21,080 nucleotides of DNA, taken from the NCBI GenBank assembly GCA_030151665.1, contig JASLDB010000007.1, positions 1 through 21,080 of the forward strand, in the 5' to 3' direction. A program made the position numbers and the translations under genes. The notes under the pieces were generated by a model. The model worked only from the letters and a program-made list of their open reading frames with translations. It did not search any database and was not told where the DNA came from. Below are positions 11,078-20,241 of the stretch, one piece after another (the first letter of the stretch is position 1; each line of letters starts with the position of its first letter). This DNA comes from Neisseriaceae bacterium (GTDB lineage Bacteria > Pseudomonadota > Gammaproteobacteria > Burkholderiales > Neisseriaceae).

Positions 11078-11106
11078 TTGACATGTAATATCTTTATTAT
11101 GATAAT
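11078..11106 (+). promoter_or_regulatory. Candidate sigma70 promoter (TTGACA -17 bp- GATAAT) ending 6 bp before the ATG at 11113, which implies a leaderless transcript; it is overlapped by the direct repeat ACATGTAATA x2 (11061..11070, 11081..11090)
   Basis: The hexamers and spacing are seen directly. There is no Shine-Dalgarno between the -10 and the ATG. Confidence 0.4.
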
Positions 11107-11112
11107 GTTCTT

Positions 11113-11733
11113 ATGAAAAAAAGTTCTGCACATTACCAGCGGCTGTATCGAGAGCGTTTGCGTGAACAAGGTTTAATCAAAAAAGAAATTTGGATTTTGC
11201 CTGAATACACCGCAATGCTTAATCAGATAGAGCAACAATTTCGCCAAGTCGATAACCTTGTTTTGACGCAAAGTCAGGAGATGATGAGTATGGAGCAAAC
11301 CCCATTTTGGCAAGTGAGTACGTTATTTAGCCAGTTGAAAGAAGCGTGCCAAGCGCAGCAACTTCATGTCGATGTACAGTTGCTTGAGGGGACTGAGCCG
11401 ATTATTCATGTGGTGATGCATGATTTTGGTGATTTGCCATTGTTTATTGCGGTGGCGGGTGAGCAAATTATTGTCGAAGGCACTTTGTGGCCGGAAACCG
11501 CTGTTAAAGATGTGGCTGGTTTTAATGATTTGGTTTTGCGGACACATCAATTGTTTCCTTTGTCGAATATTGGTATTCACAGTTCAGAGGGTATGCCTAG
11601 TTATTACGTGATGTATGGTTCTCTGAATTGCCAGTCGCGCATTAGCAGTGTGATTACAGAAATATTGGTATTGGCAGACAATATTATTAAAGCGACAGAG
11701 GCTTACGAAGCGCATTTGTTTGCGGATGTTTAG
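11113..11733 (+). CDS. YjfI/DUF2170-like (YbjN-type fold) cytoplasmic protein with a 55-aa basic N-terminal extension
   Basis: In E. coli yjfI precedes the PspA paralog yjfJ, and the order is the same here. The C-terminal 150 aa have a YbjN-like alpha/beta pattern. The N-terminus (AHYQRLYRERLREQGLIKKEIWILPEY) is basic and resembles a small DNA-binding module. An internal alternative start with a strong RBS lies at 11279/11282 (AGGAG ATGATG). Family assignment has moderate confidence. Confidence 0.55.
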   Translation: MKKSSAHYQRLYRERLREQGLIKKEIWILPEYTAMLNQIEQQFRQVDNLVLTQSQEMMSMEQTPFWQVSTLFSQLKEACQAQQLHVDVQLLEGTEPIIHVVMHDFGDLPLFIAVAGEQIIVEGTLWPETAVKDVAGFNDLVLRTHQLFPLSNIGIHSSEGMPSYYVMYGSLNCQSRISSVITEILVLADNIIKATEAYEAHLFADV

Positions 11734-11755
11734 CCGATTCATAAGGAGTGACAAA

Positions 11756-12466
11756 ATGAGTATATGGAGCAAAATGATTACCGCCTTGCGTGGTGGTGCA
11801 CATGAAATGGGTGAAAATATTATTGACGGCCAAGCTTTGCGTATTTTGGATCAAGAAATTCGTGATGCAGACGCTCAACTTCGTCAGTCAAAAGCGGCTT
11901 TGGCAGATATTATGGCCAAGCAAAAATTAGCCAAAAATGAAGTCAAGCTGCACGGTGACAAAATTGCGGAATATGAGCAATATGCTGTTCAAGCTTTAGA
12001 AACTGATAATGAAGCTTTGGCTTTGGAAGTGGCAGAAAAAATTGCGAAACTAGAAGTATTGCACACGGAAGCCACAGAGCAAATGACAGCTTACACCAAC
12101 AGTGTTAATCAGTTGCAAAAATCGGTATTGGATGTTGAGAGCCATATTAAGCGGCTCAAACAGCAAGCTGATACGGTGCGGGCAACCGACAGTGTTCAAA
12201 AAGCACAAATGGCTGTCTCCAAAAGTTTTGATGGTTCACAAGCCAAAGTGCATACCGCTTTAGAATCGTTGGAAAAAATTAAAAAGCAACAAGCGCAGCA
12301 AGCTGCTAAATTTGAAGCCCAACAAGAATTGCATCAAATGGGTGCTGATGACGATGCTTTGAATCATAAGTTACAAGCAGCGGGCATTGTGCCAGCAAAA
12401 TCCAGTGCAGACAGTGTTTTATTGCGCTTAAAAGCGAAACAGAAAAATACAGATACTGCTAATTAA
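11756..12466 (+). CDS. PspA/IM30-family protein (phage-shock protein A paralog, YjfJ-like; bacterial ESCRT-III superfamily)
   Basis: An AAGGAG RBS lies 7 nt upstream. The N-terminus (MSIWSKMITALRGGAHEMGENII) fits the PspA amphipathic helix a0. The coiled-coil body aligns with E. coli YjfJ/PspA motifs (EVAEKIAKLEVL, TVRATDSVQKAQMAV). The ORF-track start at 11720 is rejected. Confidence 0.85.
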   Translation: MSIWSKMITALRGGAHEMGENIIDGQALRILDQEIRDADAQLRQSKAALADIMAKQKLAKNEVKLHGDKIAEYEQYAVQALETDNEALALEVAEKIAKLEVLHTEATEQMTAYTNSVNQLQKSVLDVESHIKRLKQQADTVRATDSVQKAQMAVSKSFDGSQAKVHTALESLEKIKKQQAQQAAKFEAQQELHQMGADDDALNHKLQAAGIVPAKSSADSVLLRLKAKQKNTDTAN

Positions 12467-12493
12467 TCCATCACCATGAAAGGAGGCAGCGCT

Positions 12494-13123
12494 ATGTTTA
12501 TGGATATTGCGTTGTCGTTTCCAACTGTTATTTTTTCTGTCTTTTTTGCGGTATCCACTGCTTTGTGGTTGGTCAGTATTATTGGATTATTGGACATTGA
12601 AGCCAATTCTGTGGATATGGAAATGGGTGATGTGTCTGCGACAGGGCAGATGATGGGTGTATTGTCTCGTTTGGGTCTGAGTGGTGTACCCATCACCATT
12701 GTCTTGAGTTTATTGTCCATGATTGGTTGGACAGTGAGCTTTACCTTGCAGTATTTTGCCATGGGCTTGGTTGGCAGTGGTGTTTTGATGTATGTCCTGG
12801 GTGCGGTCATTTTTGTGGTGACATTTTGGCTGTCGATTAAATTGACAGCTTTATTTTGCAAACCTTTGCGGGTATCTCTGGCCAGTCACAGTGCGATTAA
12901 TAAAGCACAACTAATCGGTCAAATGGTGGTGGTGCGTAGCATGAGTGTGACAGCGACTTTTGGGGAGGCTGTTTTTAGCGCTGATGGCGTTACCATGAAC
13001 TTGAGAATCAGAGACAGTGAACAAAAAGGTTTTACCGCAGGGGATCAGGTGGTTTTACTGAAGTACGATAGCACAGCGGATGCTTTTGCTGTCATTAGCA
13101 CAGAAGAATTTAACGGTTTTTAG
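12494..13123 (+). CDS. NfeD-like short-form membrane protein (YqiJ/YuaF-like): N-terminal TM helices plus a C-terminal OB-fold beta-barrel
   Basis: The strong RBS GAAAGGAGG (12479..12486) favours the ATG at 12494 over 12476. There are about 4 TM segments. The C-terminal segment (LIGQMVVVRSMSVTATFGEAVFSADGVTMNLRIRDSEQKGFTAGDQVVLLKY) resembles the NfeD OB domain. NfeD genes classically sit next to SPFH/flotillin genes. Confidence 0.75.
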   Translation: MFMDIALSFPTVIFSVFFAVSTALWLVSIIGLLDIEANSVDMEMGDVSATGQMMGVLSRLGLSGVPITIVLSLLSMIGWTVSFTLQYFAMGLVGSGVLMYVLGAVIFVVTFWLSIKLTALFCKPLRVSLASHSAINKAQLIGQMVVVRSMSVTATFGEAVFSADGVTMNLRIRDSEQKGFTAGDQVVLLKYDSTADAFAVISTEEFNGF

Positions 13124-13166: not shown

Positions 13167-15194
13167 ATGAGTCCTATTTTGACCATGATTATCACGTTGG
13201 TGGTCGGTATTGTTATTGCCGTCATTGGTATTTTTATTTTGTTAAAAGCGTTTTATACAAAAGTACCACAAGGCACGGCTTTGATTAAAAATGGCTTGAT
13301 GTTAAGTCAACCGAAAGTCAGTTTTACAGGTGCATTTGTATTTCCAGTGATCCACATTAAAGAATTTATGAAGATTTCTTTGGTTACTTTACAAGTCGAT
13401 CGCCGTGGCAAAGATGGCTTGATTTGTAAAGATAACTTGCGTGCAGACATTACCGTGGCATTTTACTTGCGTGTGAATGAAACGGCTGACGATGTATTAA
13501 AGGTGGCAAAATCAGTGAGTGTGAATCGTGCATCTGATCAAGTCGCCTTGGATGAATTGTTTAATGCCAAGTTTTCTGAAGCTTTGAAAACCGTGGGTAA
13601 ACAATTTAATTTTGAACAGCTATTTGATGAACGCCAAAATTTTCGTGATCGAATTGTGCAAACGATTGGTGAGGATTTGAATGGTTATGCGCTAGAAGAC
13701 GTTGCCATTGATTACTTAGAGCAAACACCAGTTGATTTATTGGATAAAACCAAGATTCAAGATGCGGAAGGTATTCGCAAAATTACAGAATTGACCGCTC
13801 GAGAAGGGGTGGCAACCAATGAATTGATGCGAAACGCAGAATTGGCGATTCAAAAGAAAAACGTAGAAGCCAAAGAAGCATCCTTGGCATTGGAGCGTCA
13901 ACAAGCGACAGCAGAAGCTGCGCAGCGTCGTGAGATTGAGAGTAACCAAGCTCGCGAAACAGCGCAAACTGAAATTGTTCGAGAGCAAGAGCGTTTGCGT
14001 CAAGAAGAAGCACGCATTGCAACACAAGAGCAAATCGAAGTGCGTACCCAAAATCAACAACGTGAAATCGAAGTGGCTGAGCAAAATCGCCAACGTGCGG
14101 TGGTGATTGAAGTGGAAAAAGTCACTCGCTCCAAAGAATTGGAAGTGGTGGCTCGAGAACGCGAAGTCGAATTGCAACGCATTGAAAAAGAAAAAGCATT
14201 GGAGGTTGAACGCAAAGAAATTGCCAATGTGATTCGTGAGCGTGTATCGGTTGAAAAAACCGTTGCGCAAGAAGAAGAAAAAATTAAAGAAGTGCGTGAA
14301 GTATCAGAAGCAGAACGCATGAAAAAAGTATCGATTTTAGAAGCCGAAGCCGATGCAGAACAAGCTTTGGTTCGCCAAGTGAAGCAAGCGCAAGCGGATG
14401 AAGAAAAATCGAAACACCGTGCTGTTGAAATCAATACCTTGGCGCAAGCAGAATTAGAAGCTGCTGCCAAAGAAGCTGAAGCCAAAGCACGCATTGCTGA
14501 AGGCATGAAAGCTGAACGTGCAGCACCTGGTTTGGCTGATGCTCGTGTATTGGAAGTTACCGCTGCTGCCCGTGAAAAAGAAGGCTTGGCAACTGCACGC
14601 ATTAAGCAAGAAATGATGTTGGCAGAAGCGCGTGGTGAAGAAGAAAAAGGTTTGGCACAAGCGCGTGTATTAGAAGCACAAGCCGATGCCAAAGAAAAAG
14701 ATGGTTTGGCAGAAGCCAAAGTCTTGGAAGAAAAATTAATTGCCAAGGCGCGTGGTGAAGAACAAGTTGGTGTGGCACAAGCGAATGTGACCAAAGAACG
14801 TGGTCAAGCTGATGCCAAAGCCTTGTTGGATAAATTCAATGCTGAAGCTGAGGGCTTAACCAAGAAATTTGTGGCTTTGGCTAATATGAGCGAAAGCACC
14901 CGTTCACACGAAGAATTCCGTTTGCAACTTGAAAAAGAATTGAACGAAACATTAACGGCCATTGCTGCAAATAAAGACATTGCCAAAGACCAAGCAGAAG
15001 TTTTGGCTGCTGCATTGTCTAAAGCGAAAGTGGAATTGGTTGGTGGTGGTGGTGAATACTTTAATTCATTCGCTAAATCATTGTCGATTGGCAAGAGCAT
15101 TGAAGGTGTTGTTGGCAAAAGCCCAATGGTGCAAGATTTACTCAGCCGCTTCTTGGGCGGTCAGAAAACTGATTCATTGAACAATATGGATTAA
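13167..15194 (+). CDS. Flotillin-family SPFH/band-7 protein (YqiK/FloT-like), 675 aa, with an N-terminal TM anchor and a very long EA-rich coiled coil
   Basis: An AAAGGAAAG RBS lies upstream. The N-terminal hairpin/TM is MSPILTMIITLVVGIVIAVIGIFILL. The SPFH core is present (e.g. GLICKDNLRADITVAFYLRVNE). It is followed by about 400 aa of E/A/K/R/Q-rich repeats, including four tandem xEKxGLAxAxVLE-type repeats at about 14530..14790. Confidence 0.85.
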   Translation: MSPILTMIITLVVGIVIAVIGIFILLKAFYTKVPQGTALIKNGLMLSQPKVSFTGAFVFPVIHIKEFMKISLVTLQVDRRGKDGLICKDNLRADITVAFYLRVNETADDVLKVAKSVSVNRASDQVALDELFNAKFSEALKTVGKQFNFEQLFDERQNFRDRIVQTIGEDLNGYALEDVAIDYLEQTPVDLLDKTKIQDAEGIRKITELTAREGVATNELMRNAELAIQKKNVEAKEASLALERQQATAEAAQRREIESNQARETAQTEIVREQERLRQEEARIATQEQIEVRTQNQQREIEVAEQNRQRAVVIEVEKVTRSKELEVVAREREVELQRIEKEKALEVERKEIANVIRERVSVEKTVAQEEEKIKEVREVSEAERMKKVSILEAEADAEQALVRQVKQAQADEEKSKHRAVEINTLAQAELEAAAKEAEAKARIAEGMKAERAAPGLADARVLEVTAAAREKEGLATARIKQEMMLAEARGEEEKGLAQARVLEAQADAKEKDGLAEAKVLEEKLIAKARGEEQVGVAQANVTKERGQADAKALLDKFNAEAEGLTKKFVALANMSESTRSHEEFRLQLEKELNETLTAIAANKDIAKDQAEVLAAALSKAKVELVGGGGEYFNSFAKSLSIGKSIEGVVGKSPMVQDLLSRFLGGQKTDSLNNMD

Positions 15195-15198
15195 ACAC

Positions 15199-15226
15199 AA
15201 CAACAGGGGCTTTGGCTCCTGTTGTT
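15199..15226 (+). other. Intercistronic stem-loop (12-bp stem AACAACAGGGGC/GCTCCTGTTGTT with one G-U, UUUG loop) without a U-tract, between the flotillin and giant-ATPase genes
   Basis: Seen directly in the sequence. It is not a canonical terminator. It could be an mRNA-processing, stability or attenuation element that tunes stoichiometry. Confidence 0.45.
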
Positions 15227-15279
15227 ACCATGGGCGATTGATTTAAATCGTGATTGAATCGGTTTGGTAAGGATGGAAG

Positions 15280-18200
15280 ATGCAAAAAGCGGTCGATAAC
15301 GAACAACAAATAGATGCTGCTGTTGCCGAAGGTGGCGCTTATGATGTGCTGTATAAGCGCTTGCAAGGGCAAGGCAGTAGACTTTATACATTTACACAAG
15401 AATTAAACCAAGAGCGCCAGCAGGTTTTTGGTGATACCAGCATGAAGGTGCAAACCCGCATCCGTATTCGCACAGAGAATAATTGTGTTGCTCGAGACAT
15501 TGTGCGGGTGGGTGATTGCTTGTTACTTGGTTATAACGTTTTTATTGGTTTGAAAAAAGAAACCGCCATTAATGATGTGTTTGCTTTGTATCGCCTAGTC
15601 GACATTGAGGATGGCTATGAAGTAGAAGATTTGTCGGTGAGCGATGCTGCATTTTTGAATGACCCACGTTTTGTGATGGATTTTAATGAGCTGCATGCTT
15701 ATTACAGCAATACCCGTTTGATGCAGTTGGTGGTGCGCCAAGATAAATTATTGGCAGCATTTCAAATTGGTGAGCGTTTAACCGATATTCGGGTATTTCG
15801 TTGGGCATTGCCAGTTGATGGCAATATGAATGATGCCAAGTACATTGATAACCGTGGCGATCAAGATATTCAATTGCCAGCGGCTTATGATTTTGAATGG
15901 TTACCATGTACTCGGCGCATGTTGGTGGAAACGGGCAAGCGAGCTTATTGGAATATTGAAGACACTTTGTTTTTGGAAGTGAAAAAAGGCGTGTTGTCGA
16001 TTCAAATTGAAGACAATACTGCTACAGGCCTGACCATTCATGAAGAGATTTTGCAAGATGAAAATCAATCTTTAAACGATATTCGCCTTGAATTTGCACG
16101 CTTAGGCAGTTTGCTGTTGCTGCGTTTTTTACCTTATCGAGAACAGGCTTGGCGCTATTTGGTGTTCAACGATTTGAATAAAAGCATGGTGCGAATTGAT
16201 GCCATTAGCCAAGCTTGTATTCAATTGCCTGAAGACCACGGTATTATTTTTCCGGGCGGTTATTATTTACAAAATGGTGAGCACAAAACATTTGATTTGA
16301 ACATGGATAAAATGCTGTTTGAACGCAGCATTAAATCACCCAATGGCCAAGATGTTTTGTATGCGTTTTATGAAGAAGAAGATGGTGCATCGGTATTGTT
16401 AAATTACGATGTGGTGTCTAGGCAATTGCAAAATCCTATTTTTGGGCATGGTTATGCTCGATATGAAGATGGGCGCATGGTTATTTTTGCAGCAGAAAGC
16501 AATGAACCGACACGGGTTCACCCCATGCAAGTTTGGCAAACGCCTTATTACAGCGATGTATTTGCTGCCAATATGCCCAAAGTCAGTGGTTTTTTTGGTC
16601 GTGTTGGCAACCGTGAGTTGGTGCGGGGGATTTCGGATTTATTGGAAATTAGCCGGTTGATTCAATCAAATACTGTGTCAATCGAGCATTACACCAGTTT
16701 GTGCCAGAGTGTTAAACGCGTTTTTGATGCTTATCATTGGTTGGATGAACAGGTATTAAGTGAGTTGTCGCCTTTACTTAAAGAAGTGGCGGCAACCGCT
16801 GAGTTGGTCTTGGATGAATATGAAAAAGTCCAAGGCATTCAAGCACAATCTAAGGCGGCATTAGCAAATGCAGAACATCAGCAACAAGCATTATTGCAAA
16901 CCTTGTTGCCAGATAGTTGGCAATTGATTTCGGATTATGTTGAGGCATTAAATGGCTTAACAGCTCAACGTGGTTTGTTATTGACCATTAAAGATTTGCG
17001 CTATATTGATGTGGACGCTATTTTGCAAATGGAAGCTGATTTGCAAGCGGCTCATGAAAAAGTGGTGCTTGCCACCGTTGAATTCTTATCACAAAAAAGT
17101 GCGTTTGAGCCGTATTACCAAAGTTTAAATGAATTGGACTTGGCTGTTGAACAAGCCCAAACAGTCAGTTTGTTACAAATACCATTGGATCAGATGAACC
17201 AAATGAGCAGTGATTTGGACATGTTGACTCAATTGGTGAGTACTTTGCAAGTTGATGATGCCACACAAAAAACGCACATGATTGAAGCCATCACCACTGT
17301 TTTTGCTAAACTGAATCAAGGCAAAGCATTGGCGGCTCAGCGTCGCAAAAATTTATTAACGTCTGAAACCTTGCAGCAATTCGGTGCACAGTTCCAATTG
17401 TTTAACCAAAGTGTCACAAGTGCCTTGTCTTTGGCCAATTCTCCTGAAAGTTGCGATGAGCAACTGTCTAAATTATTGGTGCAATTGGAAGATTTTGAAT
17501 CGGCATTTGGTGAACATGAAGCCTATTTAACCGATATTCTCAATAAGCGAGAAGAGGTCTTAGAAAGTTTTGAGTCGCATAAGCAAAGTTTGTTAGACGA
17601 TAGACAGCGTAAGGCACAAGCCATTCAGGATGCTGCTTTGCGAATTATCGAAACCATGCCAAGGCGTTTGGAGCGATTGCAAACCATTGAAGAAATTAAC
17701 GCTTTTTTTGCGGCTGATGCTTTGGTTTTGAAACTAAAAGAGTTGGTGCAGCGGTTACGGGATTTGCAAGACGGAATGCGGGCTGATGACATTGAAGCTC
17801 GATTGAAAAGCACTCAAGACAACGTCATGCGTGCCTTGCGTGACAAAACAGAATTGTTTGAAGATGATGGTCGTGTCATTCGTTTGGGCAAGCATCGTTT
17901 TAGTGTGAATACACAGGCTTTGGACATTACCTTGTTACCACGCAATGGGCAATTGAATATTCATTTGAGTGGAACCGATTATTTTGAACCCACACAAAAA
18001 GCAGAATTTGATGCTTTAAAAGATTTTTGGCAAGTGGTGCATGAATCTGAATCTGGGCAATTGTACCGAGCCGAGTACTTGGCTGTGCAATTTTTGAAAG
18101 CCGCCCGTGCAGAAGAGGGGGATTTACATTGGCAAGATGTGAAAAACCATGTGCATGATTTGGCAGTGCTAACGCAGCAAGTTCGCCAATATGCAACCCC

Positions 18201-20241
18201 ACGCTACAAAGAAGGCTATGAAAAAGGTGTGCATGACCATGATGCTGCTTTGATTATTCAGGCCATTTTGCCAGTGGCTGAATATGCAGGATTGCTGCGT
18301 TATGGTGCATCTGCCCGTGCTTTGGCTTATTTTTTCTGGCATACACAAGCAGCAGAGCAAAAAAGCCTATTACTGGATCGCGCCAAATCCAATCATGCCA
18401 TTTTGCAAGTGTTTGCTTATCCTGCCGGGGTGACTGCCTTACAAGCACAATTGCACCAAGACATGGAAAAATTTGTTGTGGCGCATGAACTGGCTTTTGC
18501 TGAGCAAAGCATCCTGACTGCCGCTGAATTTTTGGTGGCTTGGTTGGCGCAAAATGACACGCCTGAATGGGTGGTGAGTAAGTATGCTGCCCAATTGGCA
18601 CATGGTTTGCAAGTGCGATTGGAAGAGCAGCATGTGTGGTCTGATTTTCAATCGACCTTGGCGCGATTAGCAGCATTTCCCCATTTGCAATGGCAGCAAT
18701 TAAGCAATGCTTTATATGGCTTAAGCCAAGTGGACGAAGAATTATCATTGTTAACGCATTATATTGATGAAGCCGTGGCCATGTTGATTTTGCAAAATGA
18801 GCAAATCTTCCATGTGAGTGAAGTGGCTTTGCAAGTGACGGTTAATCAATTATTGGGTAGCCATGTCTTGATTGAAGAGCGGGCATTGACGGTTTCATTG
18901 GATACTTTATTGGAGCGTGTTCGCTACCAAAATGAAGTGTTTATTCCGCAGTTGCGACGCTATCATTCCTTGCGCGCTGATGTGTTAAAAGATGAGGCCA
19001 ATCATTTGCGCTTGGATGAATTTAGGGCAAAACCCCTGACATCGTTTGTGCGAAATCAATTGATTCAACAAGTGTATTTGCCTGTCATTGGTGATAATTT
19101 GGCCAAGCAAATGGGAACGGTGGGTGAGAGCAAACGCACGGACTTAATGGGTTTGTTGATGTTAATTTCTCCACCCGGTTACGGTAAGACCACTTTGATG
19201 GAGTATGTGGCGGCTCGTTTGGGTTTGATTTTCATGAAAATCAATGGACCATCCTTGGGGCACCGAGTGTATTCATTAGACCCTGCCCAAGCACCAGATT
19301 CGACCTCCGCGCAAGAATTAGAGAAATTGAATTTGGCATTGGAAATGGGCAATAATGTGATGCTGTATGTGGATGATATCCAGCACACCAGTTCAGAATT
19401 TTTGCAAAAATTTATTTCATTGTGTGATGGCACAAGGCGAATTGATGGTGTTTGGCGTGGTCAAACCAAAACATACGATATGCGTGGGCGCCGTTTTTGT
19501 GTGGTGATGGCGGGCAACCCTTATACAGAATCGGGTGAAGTGTTTCAGATTCCAGATATGCTAGCGAACCGTGCTGACGTTTATAACTTGGGTGAAACCT
19601 TGGGCAATATGCAAGAGGCCTTTAACCTAAGCTATTTGGAAAATAGCTTAACGTCCAATCCTATTTTGGCACCATTGGCAACACGTGACATGCAAGATGT
19701 GTACACCTTTATTGATAAAGCTGCTGGCAAAGACATTGCCAATACAGATTTTACTTATCATTATAGCAGTGCTGAAATCCAAGAAATTACCCAAGTATTT
19801 AGTCATTTACTGAAGGTAAGAGAAGTATTGGCTAAGGTGAATGCAGCGTATATTGCCAGTGCTGCCCAAAGTGATGATTACCGAACTGAACCTGCATTTA
19901 AATTACAAGGCAGTTATCGCAATATGAATAAAATGGTGGAGAAAGTATCTGCCATTATGAATGATGTGGAACTGAATCAGTTGGTTTCTGACCATTACCA
20001 AGGTGAGGCACAATTGTTAACCACCAAAGCAGAAGAGAATTTATTAAAATTGTCAGATTTGCGAGGGGTGTTAACGGCAGAAGAAAAAGAGCGTTGGTTA
20101 CAAATTAAAACAGAATTTGTGCACCAACGTAAACATGGCAAAGGCAGTGAAGGCACCGCTAAAATGATGGTGGATGAGCTGCAAAACTTATCCGATGCGC
20201 TCAAAGCCTTAACCGCGAAAGCCATTGTATTTAAGAAGTAA
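15280..20241 (+). CDS. Giant (1653 aa) protein with a single C-terminal MoxR/dynein-type AAA+ ATPase module; the N-terminal 1250 aa are uncharacterised
   Basis: It is the largest uninterrupted ORF in the window, with an AAGGA RBS. Walker A is ISPPGYGKTTL at about aa 1296-1306 (nt 19177..19194). Walker B is VMLYVDDIQ (nt about 19361..19380). Sensor-1 is VVMAGNP. An Arg-containing NRAD motif follows. The N-terminal 450 aa look beta-rich. Residues 480-1250 are long alpha-helical/coiled regions. Confidence 0.85.
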   Translation: MQKAVDNEQQIDAAVAEGGAYDVLYKRLQGQGSRLYTFTQELNQERQQVFGDTSMKVQTRIRIRTENNCVARDIVRVGDCLLLGYNVFIGLKKETAINDVFALYRLVDIEDGYEVEDLSVSDAAFLNDPRFVMDFNELHAYYSNTRLMQLVVRQDKLLAAFQIGERLTDIRVFRWALPVDGNMNDAKYIDNRGDQDIQLPAAYDFEWLPCTRRMLVETGKRAYWNIEDTLFLEVKKGVLSIQIEDNTATGLTIHEEILQDENQSLNDIRLEFARLGSLLLLRFLPYREQAWRYLVFNDLNKSMVRIDAISQACIQLPEDHGIIFPGGYYLQNGEHKTFDLNMDKMLFERSIKSPNGQDVLYAFYEEEDGASVLLNYDVVSRQLQNPIFGHGYARYEDGRMVIFAAESNEPTRVHPMQVWQTPYYSDVFAANMPKVSGFFGRVGNRELVRGISDLLEISRLIQSNTVSIEHYTSLCQSVKRVFDAYHWLDEQVLSELSPLLKEVAATAELVLDEYEKVQGIQAQSKAALANAEHQQQALLQTLLPDSWQLISDYVEALNGLTAQRGLLLTIKDLRYIDVDAILQMEADLQAAHEKVVLATVEFLSQKSAFEPYYQSLNELDLAVEQAQTVSLLQIPLDQMNQMSSDLDMLTQLVSTLQVDDATQKTHMIEAITTVFAKLNQGKALAAQRRKNLLTSETLQQFGAQFQLFNQSVTSALSLANSPESCDEQLSKLLVQLEDFESAFGEHEAYLTDILNKREEVLESFESHKQSLLDDRQRKAQAIQDAALRIIETMPRRLERLQTIEEINAFFAADALVLKLKELVQRLRDLQDGMRADDIEARLKSTQDNVMRALRDKTELFEDDGRVIRLGKHRFSVNTQALDITLLPRNGQLNIHLSGTDYFEPTQKAEFDALKDFWQVVHESESGQLYRAEYLAVQFLKAARAEEGDLHWQDVKNHVHDLAVLTQQVRQYATPRYKEGYEKGVHDHDAALIIQAILPVAEYAGLLRYGASARALAYFFWHTQAAEQKSLLLDRAKSNHAILQVFAYPAGVTALQAQLHQDMEKFVVAHELAFAEQSILTAAEFLVAWLAQNDTPEWVVSKYAAQLAHGLQVRLEEQHVWSDFQSTLARLAAFPHLQWQQLSNALYGLSQVDEELSLLTHYIDEAVAMLILQNEQIFHVSEVALQVTVNQLLGSHVLIEERALTVSLDTLLERVRYQNEVFIPQLRRYHSLRADVLKDEANHLRLDEFRAKPLTSFVRNQLIQQVYLPVIGDNLAKQMGTVGESKRTDLMGLLMLISPPGYGKTTLMEYVAARLGLIFMKINGPSLGHRVYSLDPAQAPDSTSAQELEKLNLALEMGNNVMLYVDDIQHTSSEFLQKFISLCDGTRRIDGVWRGQTKTYDMRGRRFCVVMAGNPYTESGEVFQIPDMLANRADVYNLGETLGNMQEAFNLSYLENSLTSNPILAPLATRDMQDVYTFIDKAAGKDIANTDFTYHYSSAEIQEITQVFSHLLKVREVLAKVNAAYIASAAQSDDYRTEPAFKLQGSYRNMNKMVEKVSAIMNDVELNQLVSDHYQGEAQLLTTKAEENLLKLSDLRGVLTAEEKERWLQIKTEFVHQRKHGKGSEGTAKMMVDELQNLSDALKALTAKAIVFKK

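What the first reader, a model, noticed from the sequence alone, without database searches (positions are those of the whole stretch)
15280..20241. 1653-aa protein with one C-terminal AAA+ domain and about 1250 aa of unassigned N-terminal sequence
Only one P-loop (GYGKTT) is present, near residue 1300. It has MoxR/dynein-like features. These are a PPGxGKT Walker A, a DD Walker B and a MAGNP sensor 1.

Nothing upstream matches domains I recognise. There is a probable beta-rich N-terminal domain, then a helical region of about 750 aa.

MoxR-type ATPases normally pair with VWA partners, and none is present here. The partners here are instead PspA and flotillin polymers. A protein this large in a compact operon is a strong candidate for a substrate-engaging remodeller.
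Basis: partly seen in the sequence, partly recalled or inferred. Interest (0 to 1): 0.7.

Follow-up and report, generated by a model that had tools for sequence, protein, structure and literature searches.

The report
BacE-type flotillin-linked AAA+ ATPase
This 1653-residue gene is real, but it is not an orphan: it belongs to a widespread, already catalogued and biochemically uncharacterised family of single-AAA+ ATPases (Pseudomonas aeruginosa BacE/PA3728) that almost always sits next to a flotillin-like membrane scaffold gene and often next to a PspA stress gene.

Summary
The ORF 15280-20241 (+), 1653 aa, is confirmed. It has one P-loop (SPPGYGKTT, aa 1297-1305), a DD Walker B (1365-1366) and MAGNP (1410-1414).

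The claim that nothing upstream is recognisable is wrong at database level. Residues 37-486 match Pfam DUF3686 (E=3.9e-180) and 608-691 match DUF7902.

The protein has more than 3,700 homologues in at least 595 reference species. It is 59% identical over its full length to P. aeruginosa PA3728/BacE, in the same gene order. That operon was shown to be co-transcribed (Wallart 2024). [quoted passage not shown] 2024.

AlphaFold models show four parts: a propeller-like beta domain (56-420), a spectrin-like helical rod (426-860), a confident all-alpha domain (883-1250) with no PDB relative, and a MoxR/AAA_5-like module. No cryptic second P-loop was found.

Across 81 loci the flotillin-like gene precedes the ATPase in 79 and the small TM gene in 74. 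PspA is present in only 35. The conserved core is therefore TM protein, flotillin and AAA+.

The most likely role is an ATP-driven remodeller of flotillin/PspA membrane scaffolds. This is inferred, not shown.

Verdict: a new member of a known kind, of moderate interest.

The parts
11078..11106 (+). Sigma-70-like promoter consensus match (TTGACA-17-GATAAT, 11 of 12) just upstream of the first gene of the cluster
   Evidence: This is a consensus match only. No sigma-54 site lies upstream, unlike the site proposed for P. aeruginosa bacA.
11113..11733 (+). DUF2170 / YjfI / BacA-like protein (CesT/Tir-type chaperone fold), 206 aa
   Evidence: Pfam DUF2170, E=2.3e-42. NCBIfam BacA scores 261 bits, below its 300-bit cut-off. 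Literature.
11720..12466 (+). PspA/IM30 family protein (YjfJ/BacB-like). The real start is probably the ATG at 11756.
   Evidence: Pfam PspA_IM30, E=6.8e-42, with the match starting at residue 14 of the mechanical ORF.
12476..13123 (+). 215-aa membrane protein with about 3 TM segments and a C-terminal soluble beta-rich tail (BacC position; called YqiJ/YuaF-like in the literature)
   Evidence: Hydropathy. Present upstream in 74 of 81 loci. Only a weak YqiJ_N hit, E=0.71. No Pfam or PDB support for the family profile.
13167..15194 (+). 675-aa flotillin-like SPFH protein: an N-terminal TM segment, a Band_7 domain, and about 400 aa of E/A/R/K-rich coiled coil (BacD position)
   Evidence: Band_7, E=7.1e-11, on residues 1-220. 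The full-length scan found nothing. TM segment at 1-34 and composition. Present immediately upstream of the ATPase gene in 79 of 81 loci at 45-74% identity.
15199..15226 (+). 12-bp hairpin (4-nt loop) in the 85-nt spacer between the flotillin and ATPase genes, with no T-run after it
   Evidence: Sequence. RNA fold of 15185-15290: -30.1 kcal/mol, z=-3.2. Not called as a terminator. Function unknown.
15280..20241 (+). 1653-aa DUF3686-DUF7902-AAA+ ATPase gene (BacE/PA3728 family). Soluble, with no TM segment.
15280..15429 (+). N-terminal helices (aa 2-17 and 20-50), containing the conserved AVAEGGAYxVL motif
   Evidence: Model m7eeb26ce6401. Invariant residues.
15445..16539 (+). Beta-rich, propeller-like domain (aa 56-420), the core of Pfam DUF3686 (aa 37-486)
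16555..17859 (+). Helical rod (aa 426-860) made of long helices of 22-58 residues. It includes Pfam DUF7902 (aa 608-691; 17101-17352).
17860..17925 (+). Highly conserved linker (aa 861-882, GRVIRLGKHRFSVNTQALD) that is modelled with low confidence
   Evidence: Invariant G864, I867, L869, G870, H872, R873, F874, V876, N877, Q879, L881, D882. pLDDT about 40.
17926..19029 (+). Mid domain (aa 883-1250), nearly all alpha-helical. It is the least conserved region overall but carries the invariant motif RYxEGYEKGxHDxDA (aa 975-989).
19030..19614 (+). AAA+ alpha/beta core (aa 1251-1445), MoxR/AAA_5-like, the most conserved part of the protein
   Evidence: Pfam AAA_5 at 27.8 bits and AAA at 26 bits. 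57-70% identity across phyla for the AAA+ plus C-terminal region, aa 1240-1653. The PDB profile matches only the P-loop region. The AlphaFold model is poor here, with pLDDT below 50.
19168..19191 (+). Walker A, SPPGYGKT (aa 1297-1304)
   Evidence: invariant.
19360..19377 (+). Walker B, MLYVDD (aa 1361-1366), with DD in place of the usual DE
   Evidence: D1365 and D1366 invariant.
19507..19521 (+). Sensor 1 region, MAGNP (aa 1410-1414; N1413)
   Evidence: invariant.
19552..19578 (+). PDMLANRAD (aa 1425-1433). R1431 is the candidate arginine finger, in the position of the MoxR 'LPxAxLDRF' box.
   Evidence: Invariant. This motif was also the scan pattern that found 595 confirmed loci. The assignment is by analogy to MoxR motifs and is an inference.
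19906..19920 (+). QGSYR (aa 1543-1547), a candidate sensor 2 arginine in the lid
   Evidence: Invariant. The assignment is by analogy to the MoxR GxSxR motif and is an inference.
19615..20238 (+). Lid and C-terminal helical extension (aa 1446-1653). The roughly 100-aa tail found in most homologues is absent here.
   Evidence: Homologue lengths are mostly 1735-1800 aa, against 1653 aa here and 1645-1657 aa in a minority.

Best explanation
Identity. The gene encodes a member of the DUF3686-DUF7902-AAA+ family. It is the counterpart of P. aeruginosa BacE/PA3728.

Anatomy. It is a soluble cytoplasmic protein made of five parts:
- a propeller-like beta 'head';
- a spectrin-like helical rod;
- an all-alpha domain of unknown fold;
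- one catalytically intact MoxR/AAA_5-like ATPase module;
- a helical C-terminus.

Proposed mechanism. The protein is the ATPase component of a conserved three-gene membrane module, made of a small multi-TM protein, a flotillin-type SPFH scaffold and the AAA+. In this genome the module is joined to a DUF2170-PspA chaperone-client pair.
- The AAA+ modules probably oligomerise into a ring beneath the membrane.
- The rod and head domains probably dock onto the flotillin coiled-coil assembly, and possibly onto PspA polymers.
- ATP hydrolysis probably drives assembly, disassembly or reshaping of these scaffolds during envelope stress.

Shown: family membership, domain layout, intact ATPase motifs, gene linkage, and co-transcription and co-regulation in P. 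aeruginosa (from the literature).

Inferred: oligomeric state, the identity of the substrate, and the direction of remodelling.
For: Family membership:
- DUF3686, E=3.9e-180; DUF7902, E=2.6e-23; AAA_5 and AAA above their cut-offs.
- Homologues are 54-62% identical over 98-100% of the length.
- The P. aeruginosa homologue lies in the order DUF2170-PspA-213 aa-688 aa-ATPase-PLD-YaeQ-RecJ-M4 peptidase, which makes it PA3728.
- Members that are only 29-30% identical in the N-terminal domain keep the same three Pfam domains.

Active ATPase: Walker A K1303/T1304, Walker B D1365/D1366, N1413, R1431 and R1547 are invariant, and the AAA+ plus C-terminal region (57-70% identity) is the most conserved part.

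Membrane-scaffold link:
- The flotillin-like gene is immediately upstream in 79 of 81 loci and the TM gene in 74 of 81. The misses are mostly truncated contigs.
- PspA is present in 35, DUF2170 in 36 and PLD in 16 of 81 loci.
- The loci span Gamma-, Beta- and Zetaproteobacteria, Myxococcota, Actinomycetota and a Clostridia MAG.
- Other recurrent downstream neighbours also point to the membrane: rhomboid (a membrane protease) and TelA (toxic anion resistance family).

Literature:
- bacA to bacF are co-transcribed, and PA14_16190 protein rises 8.9-fold together with BacB, BacC, BacD and BacF in a bacA mutant (PMC10948618).
- PA3728-PA3732 are induced by phage infection (PMC12041424).
- The operon class was described, and an ATP-dependent membrane-dynamics role proposed, in PMC11237479.

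Established precedent: SPFH scaffolds partner with AAA+ machines, as in HflK/C-FtsH and prohibitin with the m-AAA protease.
Against: - No experiment addresses the ATPase itself. There is no biochemistry, structure or single-gene phenotype for BacE in the papers found.
- No physical interaction with flotillin or PspA was tested or predicted here.
- The position equivalent to pore loop 1 (GHxV[YR]SLDP) has no conserved aromatic residue. This argues against classical substrate threading.
- Gene linkage cannot show whether the ATPase acts on flotillin or is merely recruited by it.
Confidence: 0.5

Rival explanations
1. A Vps4-like disassembly factor dedicated to PspA. The ATPase would recycle the ESCRT-III-like PspA polymers encoded two genes upstream, with flotillin serving only as a platform.
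For: PspA/IM30 is in the same cluster here and in P. aeruginosa, where the genes are co-transcribed and co-induced. Ravi et al. draw the ESCRT-III/Vps4 analogy for PspA-AAA+ pairs. The P-loop region is most similar to classical-clade AAA proteins such as NVL, Rix7 and p97.
Against: PspA is absent near the ATPase gene in 46 of 81 loci, whereas flotillin is present in 79 of 81. PspA already has its own dedicated partner, DUF2170/BacA, with a predicted BacA-BacB complex. No MIT domain or any other Pfam domain beyond DUF3686, DUF7902 and the AAA-type families was found. There is no conserved pore-loop aromatic residue.
Confidence: 0.2
2. A MoxR-type chaperone or tether that uses the flotillin microdomain only as an address. 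It would mature, insert or extract some other membrane complex or lipid-modifying enzyme (for example the PLD, rhomboid or TelA neighbours), or act as a static scaffold whose ATPase serves as a switch.
For: AAA_5/MoxR-like features. There is a weak structural hit to RavA. The downstream partners vary: PLD, rhomboid, TelA. The propeller-like head is densely conserved, which suggests a specific ligand.
Against: There is no VWA/MIDAS partner, the usual MoxR adaptor, in the window or among recurrent neighbours. The variable neighbours are each present in a minority of loci, so none can be the universal client.
Confidence: 0.2
3. An anti-phage or abortive-infection module, in which the ATPase senses infection and triggers membrane or PLD-type effectors.
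For: PA3728-PA3732 are up-regulated in all phage-infected samples. A PLD/HKD gene follows the ATPase in 16 of 81 loci.
Against: No PADLOC model hits the ATPase, flotillin, TM protein or DUF2170 protein. Synteny is stable across phyla, which is not typical of defence islands. Induction by phage is what a Psp-type envelope stress response is expected to show. There is no PLD gene in this window.
Confidence: 0.07
4. A DNA repair ATPase, as the Pfam description of DUF3686 and most NCBI and UniRef names state.
For: Only the database names support this. recJ lies a few genes downstream in P. aeruginosa.
Against: No DNA-binding, nuclease or helicase domain was detected. The RuvB hits are P-loop-only and far below their cut-offs (16.8 bits against 282). 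The conserved neighbours are membrane proteins in 79 of 81 loci. No paper in the library uses or supports the DUF3686 annotation.
Confidence: 0.03

Closest known systems
P. aeruginosa BacE (PA3728 / PA14_16190) of the bacABCDEF 'biofilm-associated cluster'
   Same: Alignment is full length at 59% identity, with the same Pfam domains (DUF3686, DUF7902, AAA/AAA_5). The upstream gene order is identical: DUF2170, PspA, a TM protein of about 213 aa, and a flotillin-like protein of about 688 aa.
   Different: The window protein lacks the C-terminal tail of about 95 aa (1653 aa against 1746 aa). The bacF-type PLD gene is absent, and AhpC follows instead. No sigma-54 site lies upstream, whereas one was proposed for P. 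aeruginosa. BacE itself has no known biochemical function.
The operon class of Ravi et al. [quoted passage not shown]
   Same: Every listed component is present in the same cluster. My survey reproduces their remark that the flotillin-TM(-AAA+) unit is more widespread than the PspA dyad.
   Different: Here the order along the protein is beta domain first, then the coiled coil. The beta domain is propeller-like but not close to any solved propeller (TM-score at most 0.38), and it has no detectable sequence repeats. The YqiJ/YuaF assignment of the TM protein could not be reproduced with Pfam or PDB profiles.
MoxR-family AAA+ ATPases (RavA, CbbQ, NorQ; Pfam AAA_5)
   Different: There is no VWA/MIDAS partner. 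Walker B is DD rather than DE. About 1250 aa of N-terminal domains have no equivalent in MoxR proteins. The P-loop segment scores better against classical-clade AAA proteins. The structural comparison is weak because the AAA+ model is poor.
SPFH-AAA+ pairs: HflK/C-FtsH and prohibitin with the m-AAA protease
   Same: An SPFH-family membrane scaffold is genetically coupled to a AAA+ machine acting at the cytoplasmic face of the membrane. This is a functional analogy from established knowledge.
   Different: This ATPase has no TM segment and no protease domain, and it belongs to a different AAA+ lineage. A physical association has not been shown.
Vps4 with ESCRT-III
   Same: A AAA+ ATPase is encoded with an ESCRT-III-superfamily polymer (PspA). 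The P-loop region is similar to classical AAA proteins.
   Different: There is no MIT domain and no conserved aromatic pore loop. PspA linkage is found in only 35 of 81 loci. Size and architecture are very different.

Membership tests
DUF3686-DUF7902-AAA+ family (BacE/PA3728 type) | N-terminal DUF3686 domain (Pfam PF12458) | tested here: met
   E=3.9e-180, 599.6 bits against a 25-bit cut-off. Residues 37-486 cover profile positions 4-448 of 448.
DUF3686-DUF7902-AAA+ family (BacE/PA3728 type) | DUF7902 (PF25472) within the helical region | tested here: met
   E=2.6e-23, residues 608-691. Distant members have the same domain.
DUF3686-DUF7902-AAA+ family (BacE/PA3728 type) | A single C-terminal AAA+ module with invariant Walker A, Walker B and sensor residues, and end-to-end alignment with family members | tested here: met
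   98-100% query coverage at 54-62% identity. Invariant motifs.
DUF3686-DUF7902-AAA+ family (BacE/PA3728 type) | Gene immediately downstream of a flotillin-like SPFH gene and a small multi-TM gene | tested here: met
   The window has this order. It is found in 79 and 74 of 81 loci respectively.
MoxR / AAA_5 clade of AAA+ | Pfam AAA_5 match above the gathering score, covering Walker A to sensor 1 | tested here: met
   27.8 bits against 22; residues 1293-1416 cover profile positions 2-125 of 139. The score is modest, and PF00004 AAA also passes at 26 bits.
MoxR / AAA_5 clade of AAA+ | Helix-2 insert and pre-sensor-1 beta-hairpin seen in the structure | tested here: inconclusive
MoxR / AAA_5 clade of AAA+ | A cognate VWA/MIDAS-domain partner encoded nearby | tested here: not met
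   No VWA domain was found in any neighbour in the window. None appeared among the gene clusters recurrent across 81 loci.
Midasin/dynein-type multi-AAA+ polypeptides | Several (six) concatenated AAA+ modules in one chain, some of them degenerate | tested here: not met
Dynamin-like GTPases | A GTPase domain with G1-G4 motifs | tested here: not met
   There are no dynamin or GTPase Pfam or NCBIfam hits. The only P-loop lies in an AAA-type context.
Vps4 / classical (meiotic-clade) AAA | An N-terminal MIT domain and a conserved aromatic pore loop 1 | tested here: not met
   No MIT hit. The segment after beta2 reads GHxV[Y/R]SLDP and has no conserved aromatic residue. Only the P-loop segment aligns with NVL, Rix7 and p97.
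Canonical beta-propellers (WD40, YVTN, and others) | A closed toroid of 4-stranded blades that superposes on solved propellers, with repeat signatures in the sequence | tested here: inconclusive
DNA repair ATPases (database name of the family) | DNA-binding, nuclease or helicase domains, or DNA-repair gene context | tested here: not met
   No such domains were found. The RuvB hits are P-loop only, at 16.8 bits against a 282-bit cut-off. The conserved context is membrane proteins.
Known anti-phage defence systems (PADLOC-DB 2.0) | A match to a defence-system protein model | tested here: not met
   There are no hits for the ATPase, flotillin, TM protein or DUF2170 protein. PspA gives only coiled-coil-type noise to LmuB and JetC.

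The most novel reading that the evidence does not exclude
The family could be the first dedicated ATP-driven remodeller of bacterial flotillin (SPFH) cages. In this reading a ring of MoxR-like AAA+ modules uses six rod-and-propeller arms to grip the flotillin coiled-coil wall, and where present couples it to PspA/ESCRT-III polymers. It would then be a bacterial counterpart of the Vps4-type recycling machines that reviews state is missing for PspA. The confidently folded all-alpha mid domain (aa 883-1250), with its invariant GYEKGxHDxDA motif and no PDB relative, would be a new fold that carries a second activity or a regulatory site.
Probability: 0.3. Interest if true: 0.7.

Novelty: new member of a known kind. 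Interest (0 to 1): 0.35.

Why it matters
Bacterial flotillins and PspA/ESCRT-III proteins form large membrane scaffolds. How these are assembled and taken apart is unknown. A 2025 review notes that a Vps4-like ATPase appears to be absent in bacteria (PMC7619361).

This family is the obvious candidate for such an energy source:
- It is a catalytically intact AAA+ that is almost invariably encoded next to a flotillin gene.
- In P. aeruginosa the cluster affects biofilm formation, rhamnolipid secretion and virulence, and it is induced by phage infection.
- PA3728 is listed among genes recurrently mutated in cystic fibrosis isolates.

For this particular window the value is corrective rather than new. 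The protein is a divergent member (at most 62% identity to anything known) of a catalogued family. Its widespread label 'DNA repair ATPase' has no support. The linkage data point to flotillin rather than PspA as the primary partner.

Tried and rejected
1. Cryptic second AAA+ or P-loop. I tried a motif scan, hhalign of the mid-region profile against the AAA+ profile (3% probability, matching only the 10 overlapping residues), and secondary structure from the confident models. None gave any sign of one.

4. AlphaFold of the AAA+ core. The model was poor (pLDDT below 50) despite extreme conservation, probably because the 77-sequence alignment is almost invariant there.

5. Assigning the 215-aa TM protein to YqiJ, YuaF or NfeD. 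The only hit was YqiJ_N at E=0.71. None of the 30 family members hits those Pfam families, and the profile finds nothing in the PDB.

6. Apparent NfeD1b_N-DUF3686 fusion (P0199). The 280-residue connector is Arg/Pro/Ala-rich and looks like out-of-frame read-through. I treated it as a probable gene-call artefact.

7. Sigma-54 promoter like the one proposed in P. aeruginosa. There is no site upstream of 11113, and the window-wide count equals chance.

8. Defence-system models. There are no meaningful hits.

9. Literature searches for DUF3686, PF12458 and flotillin plus MoxR. These found no study of the ATPase itself.

10. Naming the source organism. The cluster look-up returned no name.
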